Translations under genes and position numbers: made by a program
Origin: Clostridia bacterium
GTDB taxonomy: Bacteria > Bacillota > Clostridia > Christensenellales > UBA1242
NCBI GenBank assembly: GCA_017399265.1
Contig: JAFQDL010000009.1
Location: 42,052-106,051, forward strand
Reading direction: 5' to 3'
Length of the DNA: 64,000 nucleotides
Shown here: in pieces, positions 990 to 56,848 of the stretch
Layout of the letters: each line of letters starts with the position of its first letter
How positions within the stretch are numbered: position 1 is the first letter of the stretch
Notes under the pieces: generated by a model
What the model was told of the DNA's origin: nothing
Database searches by the model: none
The model's input: only the letters and a program-made list of their open reading frames with translations

Positions 990-3900
990 TTATTTATCTA
1001 TTTTGCGATATGTATTTCCATAAACTCTATTAAAATTACATAGTCCAATATATTTACAATGTTGGCACTCTACACCACCATTATATAACAAAGGATTTGC
1101 TTCTATGCACCCATTACAAATTTCTTGTGCATCACGAACAAGCTTTTGCTCTACTTGATCAAACAACTTATTCAACTCTTCAAAGCTCAAGCCAAGTTTG
1201 TCATATGCACCCCTTGCATAAAACTGCCCGTCATTTTTTCTTTTTAATCTTAACGTTCCACCTACTGATGGAAACTCTTTTAGTTTATTATCTATTTTTT
1301 CTAGGGTTTCAACATTTTTTACAAAAAAACCATTATATCTATAAGTATCAGCAGATCCATTAGAAAGTTTGTTTTGAACCGGTATGTAAAAAGCCCCAAC
1401 CGGAGTAAAACCACTAAACCTTGAATATAACATTAAATATAAAACCAACTGTATTTTTTTACCAATCACAACTTCGTCAAAATTGCCAAAACTTCCACCA
1501 GCACCAGTTTTGTAATCCAGAATATAAAACGAATTATCGTGTTTATTGACATCAACCCTATCTATTTTGCCATACACAACAATTTTTTTGCCGTTATTTA
1601 AAACAATTTCAAACTCCTTGTTTTTATCTCCTACTGCATATTCTTTCACATAAGGTTCATATTCGGAGTTGGACAATTGATATATAATAGCCTCCGTTAA
1701 TCTAACGACTTCGGAATAAAGACCATGTATAACATTTATATTGCACCTTGATTTTACAAATCTGTTATACTTCGGATTATTTAAAACTTTTGTTAAGTTT
1801 TCTTGAGCATATACCTTTATTTGAGTTTTAAATTCATCATCGTTTTTATAATTATTCAAGTCGTATATTGTATCACTTAAATAATCGTGCAATATATCAC
1901 CTATATCATTAACAGCCAATTTACCTTTTTGTTTGTCTTTTACTTTTATACCATATCTTACAAAATGCATATATGGGCATCTTGAAAATGTTTCAAATTG
2001 ACTTGGGCTCACCTTTCCGGTTTTAAAATATAAATGGTCGGATTCTTTTAAATTTGAAAAATTATTTTTCATCATTAAATTTTTCAACAACACATTAGAC
2101 TTCTCGTCTATAACATGATATACACTTGTTACATTACTTCGATAAACAGAGTTTTTATTATAAACATTCCAATTCTTCAACTCTCTTATAATATTTTCTT
2201 TAGAAATTTGTTCTGTTATGTTTTGCTTAACAACGTTTTCTATATTAAGCATGTTAAACTCACAAGACTCAACCTCTGTAGATAGATATTTTTGTAATTC
2301 AGAATATGCAACACAAGGAAATCTCTCCTCACCCTTTGAGTCAACAGCCACATATGAAAAATTAATCGCATCTTTAGCCTTAAACAACAACTCAAAAAGC
2401 TTAAACTTCTTACGCTTGTTTATCAAATTTATTGTTGGGTTAAGCTTGTTAAAACTTTGACATTCTTTCATTTCTGTATCATTAATCAAAGCAGTCTCAG
2501 AATTATATTTAGGCAATTCGCCGTCAGCCGCACCAACAAAATATATTACTTTACAATCCTCCACCATACAAGACTCAAACTCACTTACAACCAAACTGTT
2601 CACAGTCAACGGAGGCAAAGACAATTTTATATCCTCAATAAACGATTTAACTATTTCATTAAAATATTCAGGCTTAAACGTTTGATAAGCAAACAAAAAA
2701 TCCATCTCTGTCCACACGGTTGATAATTTATCATACGCCTGAGTCAAATGTCTTGCATTTTCAACATCTCCGCAATCTATAAACTTTGAATATATCACTT
2801 CATAAAATTTATCAAAGTTTAACTTTTGCAGCATCGCAAACAATCTACTTTTATACTCCTCAAATGTTAATTCATCACTAACCTTAAAATCATTAATGTT
2901 TCTTACAGTATCAAAAACAACATCTAACTCTTCGTCATACGCCACTCCACTCGGCAAAGAATATAACCATTCGCCCGTCGCGTTAAATGTTAAAATATAA
3001 TCTTTATATTTCATTATTTGAGCATTCGTTAGCCCACAAATCCCACTATCCATAAGTTCAATTATAGAGTATCTATCAACACCATTAGCCAAAATTTCAC
3101 ACAATGTCATAACAATGCGAGACAGCAAGTTTGACGACAAAGTTTTGGCCTCATCTAAATAAAATGGTATATCAAACTTTAACAAATTTTCTGTTAACTC
3201 ATTTTTATATACTGAAAGATTTGATACTACAAATGCAACATCATTATATTCGTATTTTCCATCTAATATATCTTTCTTTATATTCGCTAACACGCTTTTA
3301 ATTTCTGAAGAAATATTGTTTGATTTAAACAATTTAAGCTTTGGTTTACAGCCTTGTACTTCTATTTGTTTATTACTGAACAAATATTTACTCAGTTGAT
3401 TATCGTTTTCACATAATATTTTATTAGGTTTTATTCCATTAGTTTCAAAAACACTATTTAAATTATATAACAATTCATTATTATATATAGCCTCATTATG
3501 AATATCTTTTACTTTGGAATACGTAGTGCAGACATTTAACGACTTTGCGGTTTTTGCCAATTTCGCAACTATTCTTGACATGTGTGGCGTTATATCTTCA
3601 TAATCAACAAGAAAGATATCACAATCAGAAAAATCTTCTTTTGAAATATTTTTTTCAAAAATATTTAACAAGTTAAAATTATCTGTATATTCACCACTTA
3701 AAGCCTCTTCATATTTTTGATAAATTATTTTCAAATCTCTCAACTTTGCCGAAAGCAAAGTATTTTTATATTCAGTATGTAATTGTTCTGGAGATATACG
3801 GCAACTTTTGTATAATTGAATAGTCTCAAACACCTTCTCAGCAAAGCCCAATTTATTAATTGCCTTTTTATAAAGTCCTAACTCGTCTTTAGCATCTAAC

Positions 3901-10242: not shown

Positions 10243-10302
10243 TTTTTAGTTGTTTTTGATAGCAAAACAACGACTATGCTCTTAGATTAGTAACCTATAA
10301 TC

Positions 10303-10446
10303 GGCCTCGTGGTGTTCTTGAGATATATTTCACCATCAGACCACCCTCTTGGCCTCATGGTGTTCTTGAGATATATTTCACCATTAGACCACCCTCTTGG
10401 CCTCATGGTGTTCTTGAGATATATTTCACCATTAGACCACCCTCTT
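10303..10446 (+). repeat. 3 x 48-bp tandem repeat abutting the tRNA-Arg 5' end. Each unit starts with tRNA nt 1-12 and contains an inverted, diverged copy of tRNA nt 1-15.
   Basis: Units start at 10303, 10351 and 10399. Units 2 and 3 are identical (ggcctcatggtgttcttgagatatatttcaccattagaccaccctctt); unit 1 has 2 substitutions. The tRNA starts at 10447 with the same ggcctcatggtg. Confidence 0.95.
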
Positions 10447-10521
10447 GGCCTCATGGTGAAATGGATATCACACGAGTCTTCGGAACTCGTTTTTCGGGTT
10501 CGAATCCTGATGGGGCCACCA
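10447..10521 (+). tRNA. tRNA-Arg (anticodon UCG), CCA encoded
   Basis: Hand-folded cloverleaf: acceptor GGCCTCA/TGGGGCC, anticodon stem CGAGT/ACTCG with loop CTTCGGA, T arm TCGGG-TTCGAAT-CCTGA. 75 nt. Confidence 0.75.
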
Positions 10522-10530
10522 CCTTTTTAG

Positions 10531-10563
10531 ACTGGAATTTCAGTATGAATTCCAGTTTTTTTT
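10531..10563 (+). terminator. Rho-independent terminator after tRNA-Arg
   Basis: ACTGGAATT-tcagtatg-AATTCCAGT followed by T7. Confidence 0.85.
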
Positions 10564-10647
10564 GTTTTAACACCCTTATTGTCTGGCAGAATAAAACAAA
10601 AGAAGTGATGCCTGTTATAAGGTCCACTTCTTTTTCCATAAACTTTT

Positions 10648-21710: not shown

Positions 21711-22232
21711 ATGATATTAACCAAACAAGAAATATTAAGGCAAGTATCTAAAAGAAATATTACCATCTCCCCCTTTGATACAAACCTACTCAATCCCAAC
21801 AGCTACAACTATCGTTTGGATTACGAACTATTAGAATTTGATATCCCGTTAGATTGCAAAAAGAAAAGCATGCCCAAAAAAATCACTCTAACCGACGATG
21901 GCTACATCTTACAACCCAATAAGTTATATCTGGCCAACACCTATGAAAGCATTGGCAGTACTAAATTTGTAACACAATTAATCGGCAGAAGTTCTGTCGG
22001 GCGTCTTGGATTGTTTTTGCAAATTACAGCTCCACTAGGTCACGTAGGCACTAATCATAATTGGACTTTAGAATTAAAGGTCGTTCAACCTGTAAAAATT
22101 TATCCATTAATGAAAATAGGACAAGTCACTTTTTGGAAAATTAAGGGCAGAAAAAATAATAATTATATCAACGGCGAGTATAAAAAATATTCCAAAGCAC
22201 AAATTAGCAAATTATATAAGGAGTTATCATGA
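21711..22232 (+). CDS. dCTP deaminase/dUTPase-superfamily protein, paralog 1
   Basis: 173 aa. Dcd-type N-terminus (ILTKQEIL...ITISPF...NPNSYNYRL) and GRSSVGRLGLF. Retains the TLEL Glu but lacks the IDPGW-like segment. Confidence 0.8.
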   Translation: MILTKQEILRQVSKRNITISPFDTNLLNPNSYNYRLDYELLEFDIPLDCKKKSMPKKITLTDDGYILQPNKLYLANTYESIGSTKFVTQLIGRSSVGRLGLFLQITAPLGHVGTNHNWTLELKVVQPVKIYPLMKIGQVTFWKIKGRKNNNYINGEYKKYSKAQISKLYKELS

Positions 22233-22747
22233 TTCTTACCGGAACAGAAATATTTAAACAAGTACAAAAAAACAAAATAACAATTTCACCCTTTTGCAAG
22301 AAGAATGTTAATCCCAATAGTTATAATGTAGAATTGGGAGATTATTTAAAAGTTTATGAAGAAGAAATCCTTGATAGCAAAAAAAAATTAAAAACTATTA
22401 CCATTCCAATACCAGACGAAGGATTGGTACTACAACCAAACAAAATCTATCTAGGATACACTAAAGAAGTCATAGGTAGTAATCACTTTGTCCCAACACT
22501 CACAGGAAGAAGTTCTACCGGAAGATTAGGCTTGTTTGTCCAAATAACTGCAGACCTAGTAGATATAGGCTTCAAAGGCAACCTCACCTTTCAGTTACAC
22601 GCCGTTCAACCCCTGAGAATATACAAGGGAATGAAAATAGGTCAAATTATGTTTTGGAAAACCAAAGGAAAAATAAAATTATATAATGGCAAATATCAAA
22701 ACAGTGTTGGACCAAGAGAAAGCCAAGTCTGGAGAGATTTTAAATAA
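22229..22747 (+). CDS. dCTP deaminase/dUTPase-superfamily protein, paralog 2 (catalytic Glu position is Gln)
   Basis: 172 aa. GRSSTGRLGLF and VDIGFKG (IDPGW.G-like), but TFQL where Dcd has (T/V)LE(F/L). 4-nt overlap with paralog 1. Confidence 0.8.
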   Translation: MILTGTEIFKQVQKNKITISPFCKKNVNPNSYNVELGDYLKVYEEEILDSKKKLKTITIPIPDEGLVLQPNKIYLGYTKEVIGSNHFVPTLTGRSSTGRLGLFVQITADLVDIGFKGNLTFQLHAVQPLRIYKGMKIGQIMFWKTKGKIKLYNGKYQNSVGPRESQVWRDFK

Positions 22748-23646: not shown

Positions 23647-23950
23647 AAGTGCTCTCGAAAGCATTCGGCCGTAGGTGTCGGGCAAGGTTCCCGACTACAC
23701 CTGGACTCTGTCCATGGGTTCGCGACGATGGTAATCGTCTATGTGTGTAACACATCAAGACCTGAGAGTAAAAAAAGTCGCACAAATTGCGACTTGTTTG
23801 GTGGTCTCTCAGGGATTCGGCCGCAGGTGTCGGGCAGGGGTCCCGACTACACCTGGACTCTGTCCACGGGTTCGTGACGATGGCAATCGTCTATGTGTGC
23901 AACACACTAAGACCTGAGAGTAAAAAAAGTCGCACAAATTACGACTTGTT
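23647..23950 (-). repeat. 2 x 152-bp tandem units downstream of tRNA-Lys. Each has a terminator hairpin, about 100 nt of GC-rich multi-hairpin sequence and a copy of tRNA nt C56-CCA.
   Basis: Proximal unit 23799-23950 begins on the plus strand with tggtggtctctcagggattcg, identical to the tRNA 3' end at 23951-23971. Distal unit 23647-23798 is roughly 90% identical, with a decayed tRNA fragment. Confidence 0.95.
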
Positions 23951-24026
23951 TGGTGGTCTCTCAGGGATTCGAACCCTGGACCCACTGATTAAGAGTCAGT
24001 TGCTCTACCAACTGAGCTAAGAGACC
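23951..24026 (-). tRNA. tRNA-Lys (anticodon CUU), CCA encoded
   Basis: Reverse complement GGTCTCTTAGCTCAGTTGGTAGAGCAACTGACTCTTAATCAGTGGGTCCAGGGTTCGAATCCCTGAGAGACCACCA folds as a canonical 76-nt cloverleaf. Confidence 0.92.
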
Positions 24027-38033: not shown

Positions 38034-39134
38034 ATGAAAATCGTTTGTGACGGACTTGATTTATCTGATGCAGTCTTAAAAGTAAGTAAAGCTTTAAGTA
38101 ATAAGAGTGTAAATCCTATACTTGAAGGAATTAAAATAAGTACTGATGAAGACTATTTAACATTAACAGCAACAGATTTAGAGTTAACAATAGAAAATAA
38201 AATAAAAGCAGATATCAAAATAGAAGGTGAAGTTGTAGTTCCGGGAAAGTTCTTTGGAGAATATATTAAAAAATTAAACAGAGAGCAAATAGAGCTTACT
38301 ACAGATAACCAAAACAATCTTAGTTTAAGATATGCCGACTCATTCGGTAAGATCCAATGTTATGACAGTTCAGAATATCCAGAAATTAAAAAAGTACAAT
38401 TCGATAATAGTTTCGAGATTAGCCAAAAAGATTTGAAAGAATTAATTAATAAGACAGTATACGCAGTATCAATTGATGAAACAAGACCAATTCTAAAAGG
38501 TGTTAAGTTTGAAGCAGTTGATAATAAACTTACAGCAGTAGCACTTGATGGTTTTAGATTAGCTATGGAAATAAAAGATATCCACAATTTAACTAATAAT
38601 GTGAATATCATTATACCAGCAAAAAGTTTGAGAGAAATTTCAAACATACTTAATGACACAGATGAAACAGTAAAAATAAATATACAAAAGAATAACATGA
38701 TGGTAGAAATTGGAAATTCTACAATAAGTACAAGACTACTTGATGGTGAATTTATAAATTTCAGACAAATTATTCCAAACAGTTTTGCAACAACAGTAAT
38801 AATTAACAAAGCTCAATTAGAAAATTCTATAGACAAAGCAATGCTATTTAGCAGAATTGATAAAAACAACTTAGTAAGATTTGAAGTAAATGAAAAATTA
38901 ATGATTGTATCAAGTCATAGTGAGATAGGTGAGAACAAAGATAATATTTCTATTTCATTAAATGGTAAAGAATTAACAATAGCTTTCAATGCCAGATATT
39001 TCTCAGATGCTTTAAGAGTAATCGATGAAGAATATATTAAGCTAAACTTTAATACTTCAATATCTCCATGCGTAATAACTGGCAATGAAAAAAAAGAATT
39101 TATAAACTTAATTTTACCAGTAAGGATATCATAA
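38034..39134 (+). CDS. dnaN: DNA polymerase III beta sliding clamp
   Basis: 366 aa with the typical three-domain beta-clamp pattern (PILEGIKI..., TRPILKGV..., LPVR C-terminus). Confidence 0.95.
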   Translation: MKIVCDGLDLSDAVLKVSKALSNKSVNPILEGIKISTDEDYLTLTATDLELTIENKIKADIKIEGEVVVPGKFFGEYIKKLNREQIELTTDNQNNLSLRYADSFGKIQCYDSSEYPEIKKVQFDNSFEISQKDLKELINKTVYAVSIDETRPILKGVKFEAVDNKLTAVALDGFRLAMEIKDIHNLTNNVNIIIPAKSLREISNILNDTDETVKINIQKNNMMVEIGNSTISTRLLDGEFINFRQIIPNSFATTVIINKAQLENSIDKAMLFSRIDKNNLVRFEVNEKLMIVSSHSEIGENKDNISISLNGKELTIAFNARYFSDALRVIDEEYIKLNFNTSISPCVITGNEKKEFINLILPVRIS

Positions 39135-40415
39135 ATAATATAAAAGGGTGTTAAAACACTCTTTTTTTTGTTACTATCTATATAATATGTGACAAAAAGT
39201 GTATGTATTGTAACACAACTATATTAATCCGTGACATATTTAATAAAATAAACTTATAAACTAAATATAAAACGATATATAATTATTAAATTATATTATT
39301 AAATTAAATATTTGTGATAAAAAAATAGATTTTACTTTGATTTTAATATTTAAGTATTAAAAATTTTTTAGCTTATTAATTAATTAATGATTATTATAAT
39401 TATACTAAAATTAGATTTTAATTTTAGGATTTAGCCAGGAGTAATTAAATATATTTTTAATTGAAATAATCAGCTAATATATTATGATAAAACAAATATT
39501 ATATGAAACTTGATGATAAAATATATAATAGAGATAGCATTTTAAATTAATTATTTTAAAAACTGACAAGGATTTACCTGTCAAATTTATCAAAATTGAT
39601 TTAATTTACGATTATTAAATTTTTAATATTAAAAAAATGGCTAAATTTAGGGGATATTTACCAATTTTTAATTTGTTAATTTTTTAATAATTTTGTAATT
39701 TATTATATTATTTATCTAAATTTAATAATAATTTTAATAAAAATTTACTAAAAAAACAATAAAAAATGACATATTTTTTAATATTAATAATGACATATTT
39801 TATAAATTTTAACAAAATTTTTTAATATAATATAGTCTAATATAGATAATTAGTATATTAAATAAAAATATTATTATAAAATTAGTACAATTTATTAAAA
39901 ATTAATTATAATTATATCAAATAATAGCGTGAATTAAATTAATTATTTTATTTTTAAGTGAATAATTCCTCATTAGAATTATTAAAATCGATTTAATTTA
40001 CGATTGTTTTTATAAAAACTTAAAAAAATCTATATATAAAGCCATTTTTTGCTATTTTTGATTTTGCTATTTTTTATAATTATCAACATTATTTTATATT
40101 TTGTGGAAATAATAAAAATTTTATATTATAATTATATTAATATAAACTTATGTTTTTACAAAATTTATATTTAAATAAAAATATTTTTTAATATAAATAT
40201 TTTTAATAGCTTTACAAATTTTTTGATTAATTTTTTAATTTATATTTTTAATGATATTTATAAAAATATACTCTTTTCAAAACAAAAAAAATATGGTATA
40301 ATATATGTATAAGATTTATAATTAACTAAAAATCAAATAAAAAATATTGTTTATAAAATAATATCAATTATCCACTTTTTGACATAAAATATGGATAAAT
40401 TAAATATTAACAGAG
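39135..40415. other. 1.28-kb extremely AT-rich ORF-free block between dnaN and mnmE
   Basis: No ORF of 60 aa or more on any frame in the supplied track. Contains the dnaN terminator (about 39143-39170), short internal repeats, two DnaA-box-like 9-mers (40102, 40368) and candidate mnmE promoters (TGgTATAAT at 40294; TTGACA at 40379). Confidence 0.9.
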
Positions 40416-55208: not shown

Positions 55209-55473
55209 TTGTGTCGACGGCGGGACTTGGCTGGAGCGAAGCGTAAGTGACGGGCAGGGTACCCGGCTACAGAGCATGGAATGCGGGTGAAAGTCCTATT
55301 GAATAAAAAAAAGTATCTAAGATTAAGATACTTAAAAATATTGGTGCCGAAGGCGGGACTTGGCTGGAGCATAGCGTAAGTGCCGGGCAGGGTACCCGGC
55401 TACAGAGCATGGAATGCGGGTGAAAGTCCTATTGAATAAAAAAAGTATCTATGATTAAGATACTTAAAAATAT
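55209..55473 (-). repeat. 2 tandem units (133 + 132 bp) downstream of tRNA-Leu. Each has a terminator hairpin, GC-rich hairpins and a copy of tRNA nt C56-CCA.
   Basis: Proximal unit 55342-55473 starts on the plus strand with tggtgccgaaggcgggacttg, identical to 55474-55494 of the tRNA. Distal unit 55209-55341 has a partly decayed copy (ttgtgtcgacggcgggacttg). Confidence 0.95.
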
Positions 55474-55555
55474 TGGTGCCGAAGGCGGGACTTGAACCCG
55501 CATGGTTTCCCGCACGATTTTGAGTCGTGTGCGTCTGCCATTCCGCCACTTCGGC
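55474..55555 (-). tRNA. tRNA-Leu (anticodon CAA), long variable arm, CCA encoded
   Basis: Reverse complement GCCGAAGTGGCGGAATGGCAGACGCACACGACTCAAAATCGTGCGGGAAACCATGCGGGTTCAAGTCCCGCCTTCGGCACCA. 82-nt class II cloverleaf. Confidence 0.92.
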
Positions 55556-55915
55556 ATGATATATAGAAAATGTAAATCAAATAATATTATGTGCAGCATA
55601 GCCAAATGGAATGGCAGACCTGCACGAGCCGAGCGAAGCGAACGCCATTCTGGAAGAATATTCCGCCACTTCGGCATGATATATAGAAAATGTAAATCAA
55701 ATAATATTATGTGAGGCATAGCCAAATGGAATGGCAGACCTGCACGAGCCGAGCGAAGCGAACGCCATTCTGAAAGAATATTCCGCCACTTCGGCATGAT
55801 ATATAGAAAATGTAAATCAAATAATATTGTGTGCAGCATAGCCAAATGGAATGGCAGACCTGCACGAGCCGAGCGAAGCGAATGCCATTCTGAAAGAATA
55901 TTCCACCACTTCGGC
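55556..55915 (-). repeat. 3 x 120-bp tandem units upstream of tRNA-Leu. Each has an AT-rich leader, tRNA nt 1-16 and a GC-rich hairpin holding an inverted, diverged copy of the tRNA 5' end.
   Basis: ttccgccacttcggc recurs ending at 55555 (true tRNA), 55675, 55795 and 55915 (ttccaccacttcggc). Period is exactly 120 bp and the copies differ at only a few positions (4 to 7 per pair). Confidence 0.95.
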
Positions 55916-56131
55916 ATGATATATGAGTTTACTTTTTTTTTACAATTACAAAAAAACTAATTTTTTTAAACTGCAAAAGCATTGTATCACATTATGTAAA
56001 GAAATTGCAACAATTTTTTCACAAATTTACTAACATTTTATTTGCGGGCAGCAAAATGTTTTGTCTTTAGTGTTAAAAATTTGTATAATATTAATGTATT
56101 ACATTAATAAATACAAGAAAGGAGAAAAAAT

Positions 56132-56848
56132 ATGGATATAAAAATTGCATTTATTTTATCTGTTGTGTTATGTGTATTATTTACCGCTTTGTTCATCTTT
56201 GTAAGAAGTAAAGGTGCTAGCCCAAAATCTTTAATTGCAAAGACTGTAGCGAGTTTTTGTTTTGTTCTTTGCTGCCTTATATCTTTAACGTACTCAGGGA
56301 TAATTAATGGTGCATATATGTGCATAATTGCAGGACTTGTGTGTGGACTAATTGGTGATATTTTATTGGAGGCTAAAGTAATATACGTTCAAGATTCAGA
56401 CATATATTTAAATGAGGGTTTTGGATCTTTCGCCTGTGGTCACGTGTTTTATATATTTGCATTGATCGATATGGCGACAAATTGCGGAATTGATTGTATT
56501 ATGCCAATCCTTGTTGCTATCGGCGGAGGGTTGCTTTTAACAATTGGATCATATTTTTCATCAACTAAACTTTTAAAACAAGATTTCGGAAAACACAAAA
56601 TTGCTACAATCGCGTACACTTTCATTTTAACAGGCATTACAGTATTTGCTATAGTTCTTGCGATCATGAATACAATGTTCATTAGCTTTGCAATTGGTTT
56701 AATTTTCTTCCTTGTATCCGACTTAATTCTTTCTATGCAATACTTTGGAGGAAAAGCAAATAACAATACTTTACAAATTTTAAATCACTCAACCTATTAT
56801 CTTGCTCAAATTTTAATTGCGAGCACAGTATTTATTCAATTATTATAA
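56132..56848 (+). CDS. YhhN-family (lysoplasmalogenase-like) membrane protein
   Basis: 238 aa, multi-pass. GLIGDILLE and VSDLILS motifs typical of YhhN/TMEM86. Confidence 0.7.
   Translation: MDIKIAFILSVVLCVLFTALFIFVRSKGASPKSLIAKTVASFCFVLCCLISLTYSGIINGAYMCIIAGLVCGLIGDILLEAKVIYVQDSDIYLNEGFGSFACGHVFYIFALIDMATNCGIDCIMPILVAIGGGLLLTIGSYFSSTKLLKQDFGKHKIATIAYTFILTGITVFAIVLAIMNTMFISFAIGLIFFLVSDLILSMQYFGGKANNNTLQILNHSTYYLAQILIASTVFIQLL

What the first reader, a model, noticed from the sequence alone, without database searches (positions are those of the whole stretch)
10303..10521. tRNA-Arg(UCG) preceded by three 48-bp units, each re-starting the tRNA (nt 1-12) and folding back on an inverted pseudo-copy
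Seen directly. The unit is GGCCTCATGGTG + ttcttgagatata + TTTCACCATTAGACC + accctctt. The 15-mer is the reverse complement of GGTCTAATGGTGAAA, which is 13/15 identical to tRNA nt 1-15 (GGCCTCATGGTGAAA). Each unit therefore forms a roughly 10-of-12-bp hairpin between a direct and an inverted tRNA 5' fragment. This is the same logic as the unrelated 120-bp units upstream of tRNA-Leu. A TATAAT at 10295-10300 precedes the array, so all three units would lie in the tRNA precursor leader. All three tRNA genes in this 64-kb window carry such arrays, which argues against coincidence.
Basis: partly seen in the sequence, partly recalled or inferred. Interest (0 to 1): 0.6.

Follow-up and report, generated by a model that had tools for sequence, protein, structure and literature searches.

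The report
Repeated sense/antisense tRNA-start units before tRNA-Arg
Just upstream of a tRNA-Arg gene in an uncultured gut Clostridia bacterium, a 48-base unit is repeated three times; each unit holds a short forward copy and a longer backward copy of the tRNA's start, the repeat number differs between strains (1 to 3), and it is most likely a by-product of DNA rearrangement at a mobile tRNA gene rather than a proven regulatory device.

Summary
Positions 10303-10446 hold three 48-bp units (98% identical) abutting tRNA-Arg(UCG) at 10447-10521.

Copy number is 1, 2 or 3 in near-identical strains. Four other species carry the same tRNA with no unit. One species (L020) has one homologous unit: its tRNA has a different acceptor stem, and the antisense arm has changed to match (3 two-sided changes).

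This tRNA-Arg is a portable gene. In relatives it lies at the left end of small elements inserted in the anticodon loop of a resident tRNA-Arg. tRNA-Lys and tRNA-Leu in the window also carry flanking arrays with inverted pseudo-copies of themselves.

Best reading (about 0.5): a DNA-level quasi-palindrome plus slippage-driven tandem duplication at a rearrangement-prone tRNA gene. Array length looks non-adaptive. A role for the basic unit, as leader hairpin or promoter, is unproven.

A full-length leader transcript is predicted to misfold the tRNA by 23 kcal/mol, so transcription probably starts inside the last unit.

Rivals: regulatory leader, tandem promoters, recombinase site. No comparable arrangement turned up in Rfam or a few literature searches. 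Interest is moderate.

The parts
10296..10301 (+).
   Evidence: Read directly. Not called as a promoter because no -35 reaches 4/6.
10303..10350 (+). Unit 1: A1 sense copy 10303-10314 (GGCCTCGTGGTG, one change from tRNA nt 1-12), B1 antisense pseudo-copy 10316-10342, spacer 10343-10350
   Evidence: Unit 1 differs from units 2 and 3 at two positions.
10351..10398 (+). Unit 2: A2 10351-10362 (identical to tRNA nt 1-12), B2 10364-10390, spacer ACCCTCTT 10391-10398
10399..10446 (+). Unit 3: A3 10399-10410, B3 10412-10438 (antisense to tRNA nt 1-29), spacer 10439-10446
   Evidence: (I3: arms 10415-10439 and 10446-10470, 25 nt, 80% complementary)
10349..10377 (+). Promoter-like site inside the array: -35 TTGGCC spans the unit 1/unit 2 junction, -10 TATATT lies in B2
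   Evidence: 9 of 12, spacer 17. Consensus match only.
10397..10425 (+). Promoter-like site of the last unit (TTGGCC-17-TATATT). A start about 10431-10433 would give a 14-16-nt leader.
   Evidence: Transcripts starting at 10431-10433 fold as a normal tRNA with a free leader.
10447..10521 (+). tRNA-Arg(UCG), CCA encoded; the element-borne ('portable') type
   Evidence: The same gene sits at the left end of anticodon-loop-inserted elements in L011, L021 and L022.
10529..10566 (+). Intrinsic terminator of the tRNA (12-bp stem plus T run). It travels with the tRNA as a module in other species.
   Evidence: Present twice in strain L001, flanking a methyltransferase cassette.
55540..55924 (-). Analogous 5' array of tRNA-Leu(CAA): 120 bp x 3.2. 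Unit = tRNA nt 1-16 plus an inverted degenerate pseudo-tRNA-Leu plus an AT-rich tail.
   Evidence: Two or one units in other strains.
55211..55494 (-). 3' array of tRNA-Leu: 133 bp x 2.1. Unit = terminator plus GC-rich X plus tRNA 3' end from the T loop; the last copy is degenerate.
   Evidence: A single unit in L050/L051/L055.
23663..23971 (-). 3' array of tRNA-Lys(CUU): 152 bp x 2, same layout as the Leu 3' array, each unit with its own terminator

Best explanation
The array is a length-polymorphic tandem duplication of a 48-bp quasi-palindromic module that sits in front of a horizontally mobile tRNA-Arg(UCG) gene.

The module has three parts:
- B: a degenerate antisense copy of the tRNA's first 29 nt, ending 8 nt before the tRNA.
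- A: a 12-nt sense copy of the tRNA start.
- An 8-nt spacer.

Proposed mechanism. The inverted copy was made at DNA level, by strand or template switching or another rearrangement. The site is prone to this: the gene is highly transcribed, faces replication head-on, and is a repeated target and cargo of integrative elements. Because A repeats tRNA nt 1-12, the 48 bp are bracketed by direct repeats. Copies are then gained and lost by replication slippage or unequal recombination, giving 1-3 copies in near-identical strains. The arm of B that faces the acceptor strand stays complementary to it. This could come from template-switch 'correction' within the quasi-palindrome or from weak selection for a hairpin.

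In single-stranded DNA or RNA, each B can pair with the A on either side.

For the tRNA to be made, transcription most likely starts at the promoter-like site inside the last unit. That gives a short, free leader.

I regard array length as non-adaptive and the function of the basic unit as unproven.

Shown: anatomy, significance, copy-number polymorphism, absence of the unit in other species, co-variation, the mobile-element context, and predicted folds.
Inferred: the mutational mechanism, the transcription start, and neutrality.
For: Anatomy and significance.

Copy number: 3 units (window, L002), 2 units (L001, L003-5, L008, L009), 1 unit (L010), all on contigs that encode the identical 105-aa neighbour. 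Flanks are 97-98% identical. The tRNA-Leu 5' array shows the same kind of polymorphism, with 3, 2 or 1 units.

The same tRNA works without any unit in L011, L019, L021 and L022.

This tRNA is portable:
- In L011, L021 and L022 it follows a truncated resident tRNA-Arg 5' half and a conserved 130-nt arm.
- In strain L001 a cargo gene, an arm homologous to the L011 right arm, a decayed tRNA remnant and a second terminator copy follow it.
- Relatives of L020 anchored on RecD2 have no tRNA-Arg at that place.
- A tyrosine-integrase element of the same design occupies tRNA-Lys in other strains.

All four arrays in the window contain inverted pseudo-copies of their own tRNA. This points to a recurrent DNA-level process rather than one evolved RNA motif.

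Variable positions in a predicted Leu-unit hairpin are not compensated.

The two tRNAs with 5' arrays face replication head-on.

[quoted passage not shown] They are stimulated by high transcription (PMC7202029, PMC3820800; abstracts seen).

A full-length leader is predicted to misfold the tRNA (-77.3 against -54.2 kcal/mol). A transcript from the last-unit promoter-like site folds normally.
Against: No contig of this species that spans the site lacks the unit.

The unit in L020 shares B-specific features with the window: the GG deletion, CTC for CAC, and the stretch TTGAGATATATTTCACCAT identical. Yet its acceptor-facing arm matches a completely different acceptor stem. Pairs 1, 2 and 5 changed on both sides, and 10/12 and 11/12 positions are paired. 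That is what selection on a hairpin would produce. Template-switch correction should give perfect arms, but each lineage keeps 1-2 mismatches.

Only two lineages carry the unit, so neither reading can be tested statistically.

No transcript data exist. The mechanism that first made the inverted copy is not observed. The unit-internal promoter-like site is not called in L020.
Confidence: 0.5

Rival explanations
1. Selected leader RNA device. The units are transcribed with the tRNA. Each antisense segment B pairs with a sense decoy A, or with the real tRNA 5' strand. This sets how much precursor folds into tRNA and where RNase P can cut. Unit number tunes the output of a rare-codon tRNA.
For: Co-variation of the antisense arm with a different acceptor stem in L020: 3 two-sided changes, with 10/12 and 11/12 positions paired. 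At least one unit was retained in every contig of this species that spans the site. The mismatches keep A:B (-8 to -12 kcal/mol) weaker than the acceptor stem. The tRNA-Leu leader has a comparable sense-plus-antisense layout. In L020 the only called promoter on the tRNA strand lies upstream of the unit.
Against: The same tRNA lacks the unit in four species. Copy number varies between near-identical strains. The predicted minimum-energy fold of the full precursor sequesters the true 5' strand and pairs decoy A1 with the 3' strand, 23 kcal/mol below the 'intended' fold, which would damage rather than regulate the tRNA. There is no Rfam family. The ACC tail after the hairpin is not conserved in L020. 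The predicted Leu-unit hairpin varies without compensation.
Confidence: 0.2
2. Tandem promoter duplication. Each unit carries a promoter: the -35 TTGGCC is created at the unit junction and the -10 TATATT lies inside B. Duplication multiplies or improves promoters for the tRNA. The antisense similarity is incidental to that role.
For: TTGGCC-17-TATATT is called in units 2 and 3, while the first unit has only TCGGCC at the -35 position. A start about 7 nt after the last -10 gives a normal 14-16-nt unstructured leader and a correctly folded tRNA. The TATATT stretch is identical in L020.
Against: These are consensus matches only: 4 found against 2.2 expected in shuffles. No such site is called in the L020 unit, where the -35 position reads CATCTC. 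This reading does not explain why B is complementary to tRNA nt 1-29 (0/300 shuffles) or why its arm co-varies with the acceptor.
Confidence: 0.12
3. Site-specific recombination site. B-spacer-A (12-8-12 in the window, 12-7-12 in L020) is the core site of a tyrosine recombinase that belongs to the tRNA-carrying element. Unit number changes by recombination between repeated sites, or the units are scars of repeated integration at the tRNA 5' end.
For: The geometry equals that of simple tyrosine-recombinase core sites, which have inverted 11-13-bp arms around a 6-8-bp spacer (established knowledge). Tyrosine-integrase elements demonstrably use tRNA genes of this organism. The outermost sense copy is the most diverged one in both the Arg and Leu 5' arrays, as expected for a displaced resident fragment. 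The 3' arrays of Lys and Leu look like classical displaced 3' ends: identity from the T loop onward, with the outermost copy degenerate and followed by a different terminator.
Against: The documented elements cross over in the anticodon loop, not at nt 12. Their arms contain no tRNA-like sequence in either orientation. No recombinase was found among the neighbours tested. The inner 7 nt of the arms differ completely between lineages, which a sequence-specific protein should not tolerate. A 48-bp 'element' cannot circularise.
Confidence: 0.12
4. Assembly artefact: the repeats or their number come from misassembly of metagenome reads.
For: All sequences are metagenome assemblies. Repeat collapse could change the apparent copy number.
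Against: Independent assemblies from JGI, ENA and Logan give the same units. Units carry unit-specific SNPs: G7 and the C in B1 of the window type, and ACTCTCTT in unit 2 of the L001 type. The whole array (144 bp) is about the size of the largest assembly k-mers named in the contig ids (k141). A different species shows a homologous unit.
Confidence: 0.03

Closest known systems
Displaced tRNA-gene fragments at integration sites of tyrosine-integrase elements (Reiter 1989; Williams 2002; Islander, PMC4383910; PMC9897764; tycheposon islands, bioRxiv 10.1101/2020.12.28.424599)
   Same: Partial copies of a tRNA lie in direct orientation next to the intact gene, sometimes several in a row. The organism demonstrably hosts integrase elements at these very tRNA genes. 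The Lys and Leu 3' arrays fit the classical picture well.
   Different: The Arg repeat is the tRNA 5' end (nt 1-12), not a 3' segment. Only 36 bp lie between copies and there is no integrase. Each unit holds an inverted pseudo-copy of the tRNA, which att scars do not have. The elements seen here cross over in the anticodon loop.
Quasi-palindrome-associated template-switch mutation and slipped-strand tandem duplication (PMC7202029; PMC3820800)
   Same: An imperfect inverted repeat with a short spacer lies next to a highly transcribed gene. Changes keep or extend arm complementarity. Short direct repeats bracket the duplicated segment. Copy number is unstable.
   Different: Those studies describe point-scale corrections in reporter genes. 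They do not describe a 29-nt inverted copy of a tRNA start kept across species and amplified in tandem. Mismatches persist in both lineages here.
Simple tyrosine-recombinase core sites (loxP, FRT, dif; established knowledge)
   Same: 12-13-bp inverted arms around a 6-8-bp spacer.
   Different: Arm sequence is not conserved between occurrences. No cognate recombinase was found. The right arm is the tRNA itself.
REP/BIME elements mobilised by RAYT transposases (established knowledge)
   Same: The X segments of the Lys and Leu 3' arrays share a GTAG tetranucleotide followed by a GC-rich hairpin, and they occur in tandem after genes.
   Different: There are only four copies in 64 kb, all inside tRNA 3' arrays. 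The Arg unit has no such motif. No RAYT gene was examined. The pattern has no hits in the viral contigs.
Structured pre-tRNA leaders and cis-regulatory leader RNAs (Rfam families such as T-box)
   Same: A hairpin-forming leader lies directly upstream of a tRNA.
   Different: No Rfam match even at E<=10. The hairpin is built from the tRNA's own 5' sequence and competes with the acceptor stem.

Membership tests
Integrase att-site scar (displaced tRNA fragment) | Direct repeat of a tRNA segment beside the intact tRNA gene | tested here: met
   tRNA nt 1-12 is repeated three times upstream.
Integrase att-site scar (displaced tRNA fragment) | The repeated segment is a 3' part that begins in the anticodon loop, the T loop or the extreme 3' end | tested here: not met
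   The Arg repeat is the 5' end. The feature is met by the Lys and Leu 3' arrays, where identity starts in the T loop.
Integrase att-site scar (displaced tRNA fragment) | An element with an integrase (or its remnant) lies between the repeats | tested here: not met
   Only 36 bp lie between copies. The neighbours tested have no integrase domain. Integrase elements at tRNA-Lys in other strains use the anticodon loop.
Tyrosine-recombinase core site | Inverted 11-13-bp arms around a 6-8-bp spacer | tested here: met
   12-8-12 in the window and 12-7-12 in L020.
Tyrosine-recombinase core site | Arm sequence conserved where the same recombinase family acts | tested here: not met
   The inner 7 nt of both arms differ at most positions between the window and L020.
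Tyrosine-recombinase core site | Cognate recombinase and recombination products | not testable with these tools
   No reads and no biochemistry are available. No recombinase was found beside the array.
Quasi-palindrome plus slippage-driven tandem duplication | Imperfect inverted repeat with a short spacer, and direct repeats bracketing the unit | tested here: met
   (I3; D1).
Quasi-palindrome plus slippage-driven tandem duplication | Copy number unstable among close relatives | tested here: met
   1, 2 or 3 units on contigs with an identical neighbouring protein.
Quasi-palindrome plus slippage-driven tandem duplication | No selective constraint on the unit | tested here: inconclusive
   The unit is absent in four species. 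But its arm co-varies with the acceptor in L020, and no contig of the window species that spans the site lacks it.
Known structured RNA family (Rfam 15) | Covariance-model match | tested here: not met
   Only tRNA at gathering threshold. At E<=10 there are only chance hairpin-type (miRNA) hits.
tRNA minihelix / tRNA-like 3' end | 12-bp acceptor-T-like helix followed by a conserved NCCA-like tail | tested here: not met
   The window hairpin is followed by ACCC, but L020 has AUUU there.
REP/BIME | GTAG plus palindrome, dispersed in many intergenic copies, with a RAYT gene in the genome | tested here: not met
   The Arg unit has no GTAG hairpin. The GTAG hairpin of the Lys and Leu X segments occurs only in those arrays. 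RAYT presence was not tested.
CRISPR array | Identical repeats separated by unique spacers | tested here: not met
   The whole 48-bp unit repeats and there are no unique spacers.

The most novel reading that the evidence does not exclude
Sense/antisense 'tRNA-end modules' are a selected accessory of portable tRNA genes. In this reading they form a slippage-tunable leader, with matching trailer modules at other tRNAs. The module would decide whether the transcript folds into a tRNA or into a mis-registered, RNase-P-decoy fold. Alternatively it would supply extra promoters. Either way, repeat number would act as a heritable rheostat for a rare-codon tRNA. The antisense arm would be kept complementary to whatever acceptor stem the gene carries.
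Probability: 0.15. Interest if true: 0.7.

Novelty: new variant of a known kind. Interest (0 to 1): 0.45.

Why it matters
If the units are only scars, they still mark an unusual hot spot. tRNA genes in this gut Clostridia lineage are both targets and cargo of small integrative elements. Their flanks accumulate inverted pseudo-copies that then amplify. This matters for tRNA annotation, for delimiting genomic islands, and for understanding instability at head-on, highly transcribed genes.

If the basic unit is selected, it would be a new kind of cis element. It would be a leader built from the tRNA's own 5' end that competes with the acceptor stem, with dosage set by repeat number.

Either way, the side finding may be the more useful lead: elements that cut a tRNA gene in the anticodon loop, do not repair it, and bring a complete substitute tRNA with another acceptor stem.

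Tried and rejected
1. Rfam at gathering threshold and at E<=10 on all three tRNA regions: nothing but tRNA and chance hairpin hits.
2. Viral-contig scans for the X hairpin motif, the tRNA-Arg body, the B motif and the terminator module: 0 hits each. There is no evidence for a phage origin.
3. The metagenome scan with the tRNA-Arg body returned only unrelated organisms without arrays. The genome scan gave four species.
4. Anchoring on homologues of the 105-aa neighbour (P0002, P0004, P0007, P0009, P0058): no synteny with tRNA-Arg. Anchoring on RecD2 of L020 (P0224, P0227): no tRNA there. The L020/L056 comparison shows a rearranged region, so the insertion boundaries could not be defined.
5. Idea that window 10243-10302 is a decayed resident 5' half plus the start of the left arm: alignment not significant (61-689 of 1000 shuffles). 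Dropped.
6. Idea that the inverted copies come from the arms of the anticodon-loop elements: the arms of L011, L022 and L040 have no tRNA-like sequence in either orientation. Rejected.
7. Minihelix with an ACC tail as a CCA-enzyme or RNase P mimic: the tail is not conserved in L020. Rejected.
8. GGCACCC arm repeats of the Arg element sought in the window: only chance-level matches, elsewhere in the window.
9. The MAFFT alignment of units (A1) misplaced the spacer gap inside the second sense copy, so pair counts were done by script instead.
10. CRISPR, retron, guide-RNA (omega/bridge RNA) and integron attC readings were considered from anatomy. They were set aside: there are no unique spacers, no associated protein genes among the neighbours tested, and no consensus attC ends.

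Full report
What is there. The window is a bacterial chromosome segment around the replication origin. It carries dnaA and dnaN, an extremely AT-rich stretch at 39-40 kb, mnmE and mnmG, a GC-skew minimum near 35 kb, and about 30% G+C. The best protein matches are to uncultured Clostridia (Christensenellales-like) MAGs from gut and herbivore metagenomes. ARAGORN and Rfam find three tRNA genes: Arg(UCG) at 10447-10521 (+), Lys(CUU) at 23951-24026 (-) and Leu(CAA) at 55474-55555 (-).

Tandem Repeats Finder reports 48 bp x 3.2 copies at 10303-10458 with 98% matches. The units are in register at 10303, 10351 and 10399, and the fourth 'start' is the tRNA itself. Each unit reads GGCCTCATGGTG | TTCT | TGAGATATATTTCACCATTAGACC | ACCCTCTT.

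The reverse complement of the non-tRNA part aligns with tRNA nt 1-29 with one 2-nt gap (0 of 300 shuffles reach the score). The last antisense segment and the tRNA form a 25-nt, 80% complementary inverted repeat with 6 nt between the arms. The TATAAT is at 10296-10301.

Same logic at the other tRNAs. tRNA-Leu has a 5' array (120 bp x 3.2) and a 3' array (133 bp x 2.1). tRNA-Lys has a 3' array (152 bp x 2). In every case the part of the unit that is not a direct tRNA fragment contains an inverted pseudo-copy of the adjacent tRNA. Read on the opposite strand, the Leu 5' unit is collinear with tRNA-Leu nt 12-78, and the 3' units are collinear with degenerate tRNAs.

The 3' units are each made of a terminator, a GC-rich segment, and the tRNA 3' end from the T loop onward. 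The outermost copy is degenerate and is followed by a different terminator. The GC-rich segments of Lys and Leu share one hairpin motif that is found nowhere else in the window. No Rfam family matches any of this.

Variation. Contigs that encode exactly the same 105-aa protein just upstream carry different numbers of units:
- 3 units: the window and L002.
- 2 units: L001, L003-5, L008 and L009.
- 1 unit: L010.
Units carry their own SNPs, so collapse during assembly is not the whole story. No contig that spanned the site had zero units. The Leu 5' array likewise has 3, 2 or 1 units, and the Leu 3' array 2 or 1.

A scan of one genome per species with the tRNA body found four species, plus L011 from a protein look-up. 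L011, L019, L021 and L022 have the same tRNA-Arg with no unit. L020 has one homologous unit: CTCCCAGTGGTG TTTTGAGATATATTTCACCATTGTGAG ATTTCAT, then the tRNA. The L020 tRNA has another acceptor stem (CTCCCAG instead of GGCCTCA). The antisense arm has changed with it, while the rest of the antisense segment is identical to the window, including its private differences from the tRNA. Pairs 1, 2 and 5 changed on both sides, and 10/12 and 11/12 positions pair.

Context: a portable tRNA. In L011, L021 and L022 this tRNA-Arg lies about 130 nt downstream of a resident tRNA-Arg(UCG) that is cut right after its anticodon loop. The interval is a conserved arm. The tRNA is followed by the same terminator, a conserved promoter and a variable cargo gene. 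In L011 the resident 3' half follows the cargo.

Strain L001 of the window species has an extra 1.1 kb after the tRNA-Arg terminator. It contains that promoter, a methyltransferase gene, an arm homologous to the L011 right arm, a decayed tRNA remnant and a second copy of the terminator. The window lacks this stretch. So the window's tRNA-Arg is the element-borne copy.

The same design is seen at tRNA-Lys. In nine of ten strain contigs (all but L041) the resident gene is cut after the anticodon loop and is not restored. The element brings a complete tRNA-Lys with an identical body but another acceptor stem, a terminator, and a 483-aa tyrosine integrase. The arms of these elements contain no tRNA-like sequence, so the inverted copies are a separate feature of the arrays.

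How it may work. As RNA, a unit's own A:B hairpin is weak (-8 to -12 kcal/mol). B paired with the following sense copy is stronger, and B3 paired with the tRNA 5' part is strong (-21 kcal/mol). For the whole 219-nt array plus tRNA, the minimum-energy fold pairs each B with the next A and pairs B3 with the true tRNA 5' strand. It also pairs the first decoy A with the tRNA 3' acceptor strand. This fold scores -77.3 kcal/mol. The fold in which each unit pairs with itself and the tRNA forms a cloverleaf scores only -54.2. A full-length leader would therefore tend to spoil the tRNA.

The scan finds no -35 for the TATAAT in front of the array. It does call TTGGCC-17-TATATT in units 2 and 3. A transcript starting about 7 nt after the last -10 has a free 14-16-nt leader and folds as a tRNA. 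This internal site is not called in L020, where the only candidate on the tRNA strand lies upstream. Promoter calls are consensus matches only.

Weighing. The following favour a DNA-level, largely non-adaptive origin:
- Length polymorphism between near-identical strains.
- Absence of the unit from the same tRNA in four species.
- Four different arrays that each copy their own tRNA in inverted orientation.
- Uncompensated variation in a predicted Leu-unit hairpin.
- A setting in a rearrangement hot spot.
- The fact that the two tRNAs with 5' arrays face replication head-on while tRNA-Lys does not (n=3).

Template-switch events that create or extend complementarity in quasi-palindromes are documented, and they are stimulated by strong transcription (PMC7202029, PMC3820800). 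Direct repeats of 12 nt (60 nt once two units exist) explain gain and loss of units.

Against pure neutrality stand the co-varying arm in L020 and the retention of at least one unit. With only two lineages this cannot be settled.

I put 0.5 on the mutational by-product model, 0.2 on a selected leader device, 0.12 on tandem promoters, 0.12 on a recombinase site or 5' integration scar, and about 0.03 on artefact.

Comparison with known systems. The nearest known phenomenon is the trail of partial tRNA copies left by integrase elements (PMC4383910, PMC9897764, bioRxiv 10.1101/2020.12.28.424599). The Lys and Leu 3' arrays fit it reasonably. The Arg array fails two defining features: the repeated piece is a 5' fragment, and there is no element between copies. 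It also has an inverted copy that att scars lack. The 12-8-12 geometry resembles a simple tyrosine-recombinase core site, but the arms are not conserved. REP/BIME, CRISPR, Rfam leaders and tRNA-minihelix readings each fail a tested feature (see the membership table).

I found no description of tandem sense-plus-antisense tRNA-start units, so I rate this a new variant of a known kind.

Limits. All sequences are metagenome assemblies. There are no transcript data. The rest of the genome's tRNA loci could not be surveyed.

Noticed in passing
L038-L040, L042-L047 (about locus 1900-3300); compare window 23951-24026: In nine of ten strain contigs (all but L041) the resident tRNA-Lys(CUU) is cut right after its anticodon loop and is not restored. 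About 115 nt further on, the inserted element carries a complete tRNA-Lys(CUU) with an identical body but a different acceptor stem (GGACCTT/AAGGTCC), a terminator and a 483-aa tyrosine integrase. This is gene replacement rather than the usual att-site repair, and may amount to an addiction-like strategy.
   Followed up: partly
L011:2157-3090; L021 and L022 (tRNA-Arg regions); L001:3550-4720: The same design occurs for tRNA-Arg(UCG). The order is: resident 5' half ending ...CTTCGGA|C, a conserved 130-nt arm with GGCACCC repeats, a complete tRNA-Arg, a terminator, a conserved promoter, variable cargo (105-aa protein, serine hydrolase, methyltransferase), a right arm, and the resident 3' half. 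No integrase lies inside the short L011 copy (about 850 bp).
   Followed up: partly
window 23663-23971 and 55211-55494 (- strand): The 3' arrays of tRNA-Lys and tRNA-Leu have units made of a terminator, a GC-rich segment and the tRNA 3' end from the T loop. The GC-rich segments share a REP-like hairpin, GTAGYCGGGNNCCYTGCCCGNCAC, found only there. Read on the opposite strand, the units look like degenerate inverted tRNAs.
   Followed up: partly
window 55540-55924 (- strand): The 120-bp unit of the tRNA-Leu 5' array, read on the + strand, is collinear with tRNA-Leu nt 12-78, so it is a nearly full-length inverted pseudo-tRNA. Copy number is 3, 2 or 1 among strains.
   Followed up: yes
window 10447-10521, 23951-24026, 55474-55555 relative to oriC at about 39-40 kb: tRNA-Arg and tRNA-Leu, the two genes with 5' arrays, are oriented head-on to replication. 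tRNA-Lys, which has no 5' array, is co-directional. There are only three cases.
   Followed up: no
window 56132-56848 against L050-L055: The YhhN-family protein next to tRNA-Leu is only 73% identical between two strain sets. The adjoining intergenic region with the tRNA and its arrays is visibly near-identical on inspection (identity not computed). This looks like a sharp recombination boundary.
   Followed up: no
tRNA-Arg genes of window, L010, L021 against L011, L020, L022: There are two alleles of the portable tRNA-Arg. They differ in nearly the whole acceptor stem and in one compensated anticodon-stem pair, yet share almost identical terminator and promoter flanks. The D arm plus anticodon arm (34 nt) is identical even in unrelated organisms (L023-L028).
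   Followed up: partly
window 39000-40400: An extremely AT-rich stretch (15% G+C) full of short tandem repeats lies between dnaN and mnmE. It is presumably the replication origin region.
   Followed up: no
window 21711-22232 and 22229-22747: Two adjacent, overlapping genes for dCTP deaminase-like proteins lie next to the tRNA-Lys locus.
   Followed up: no
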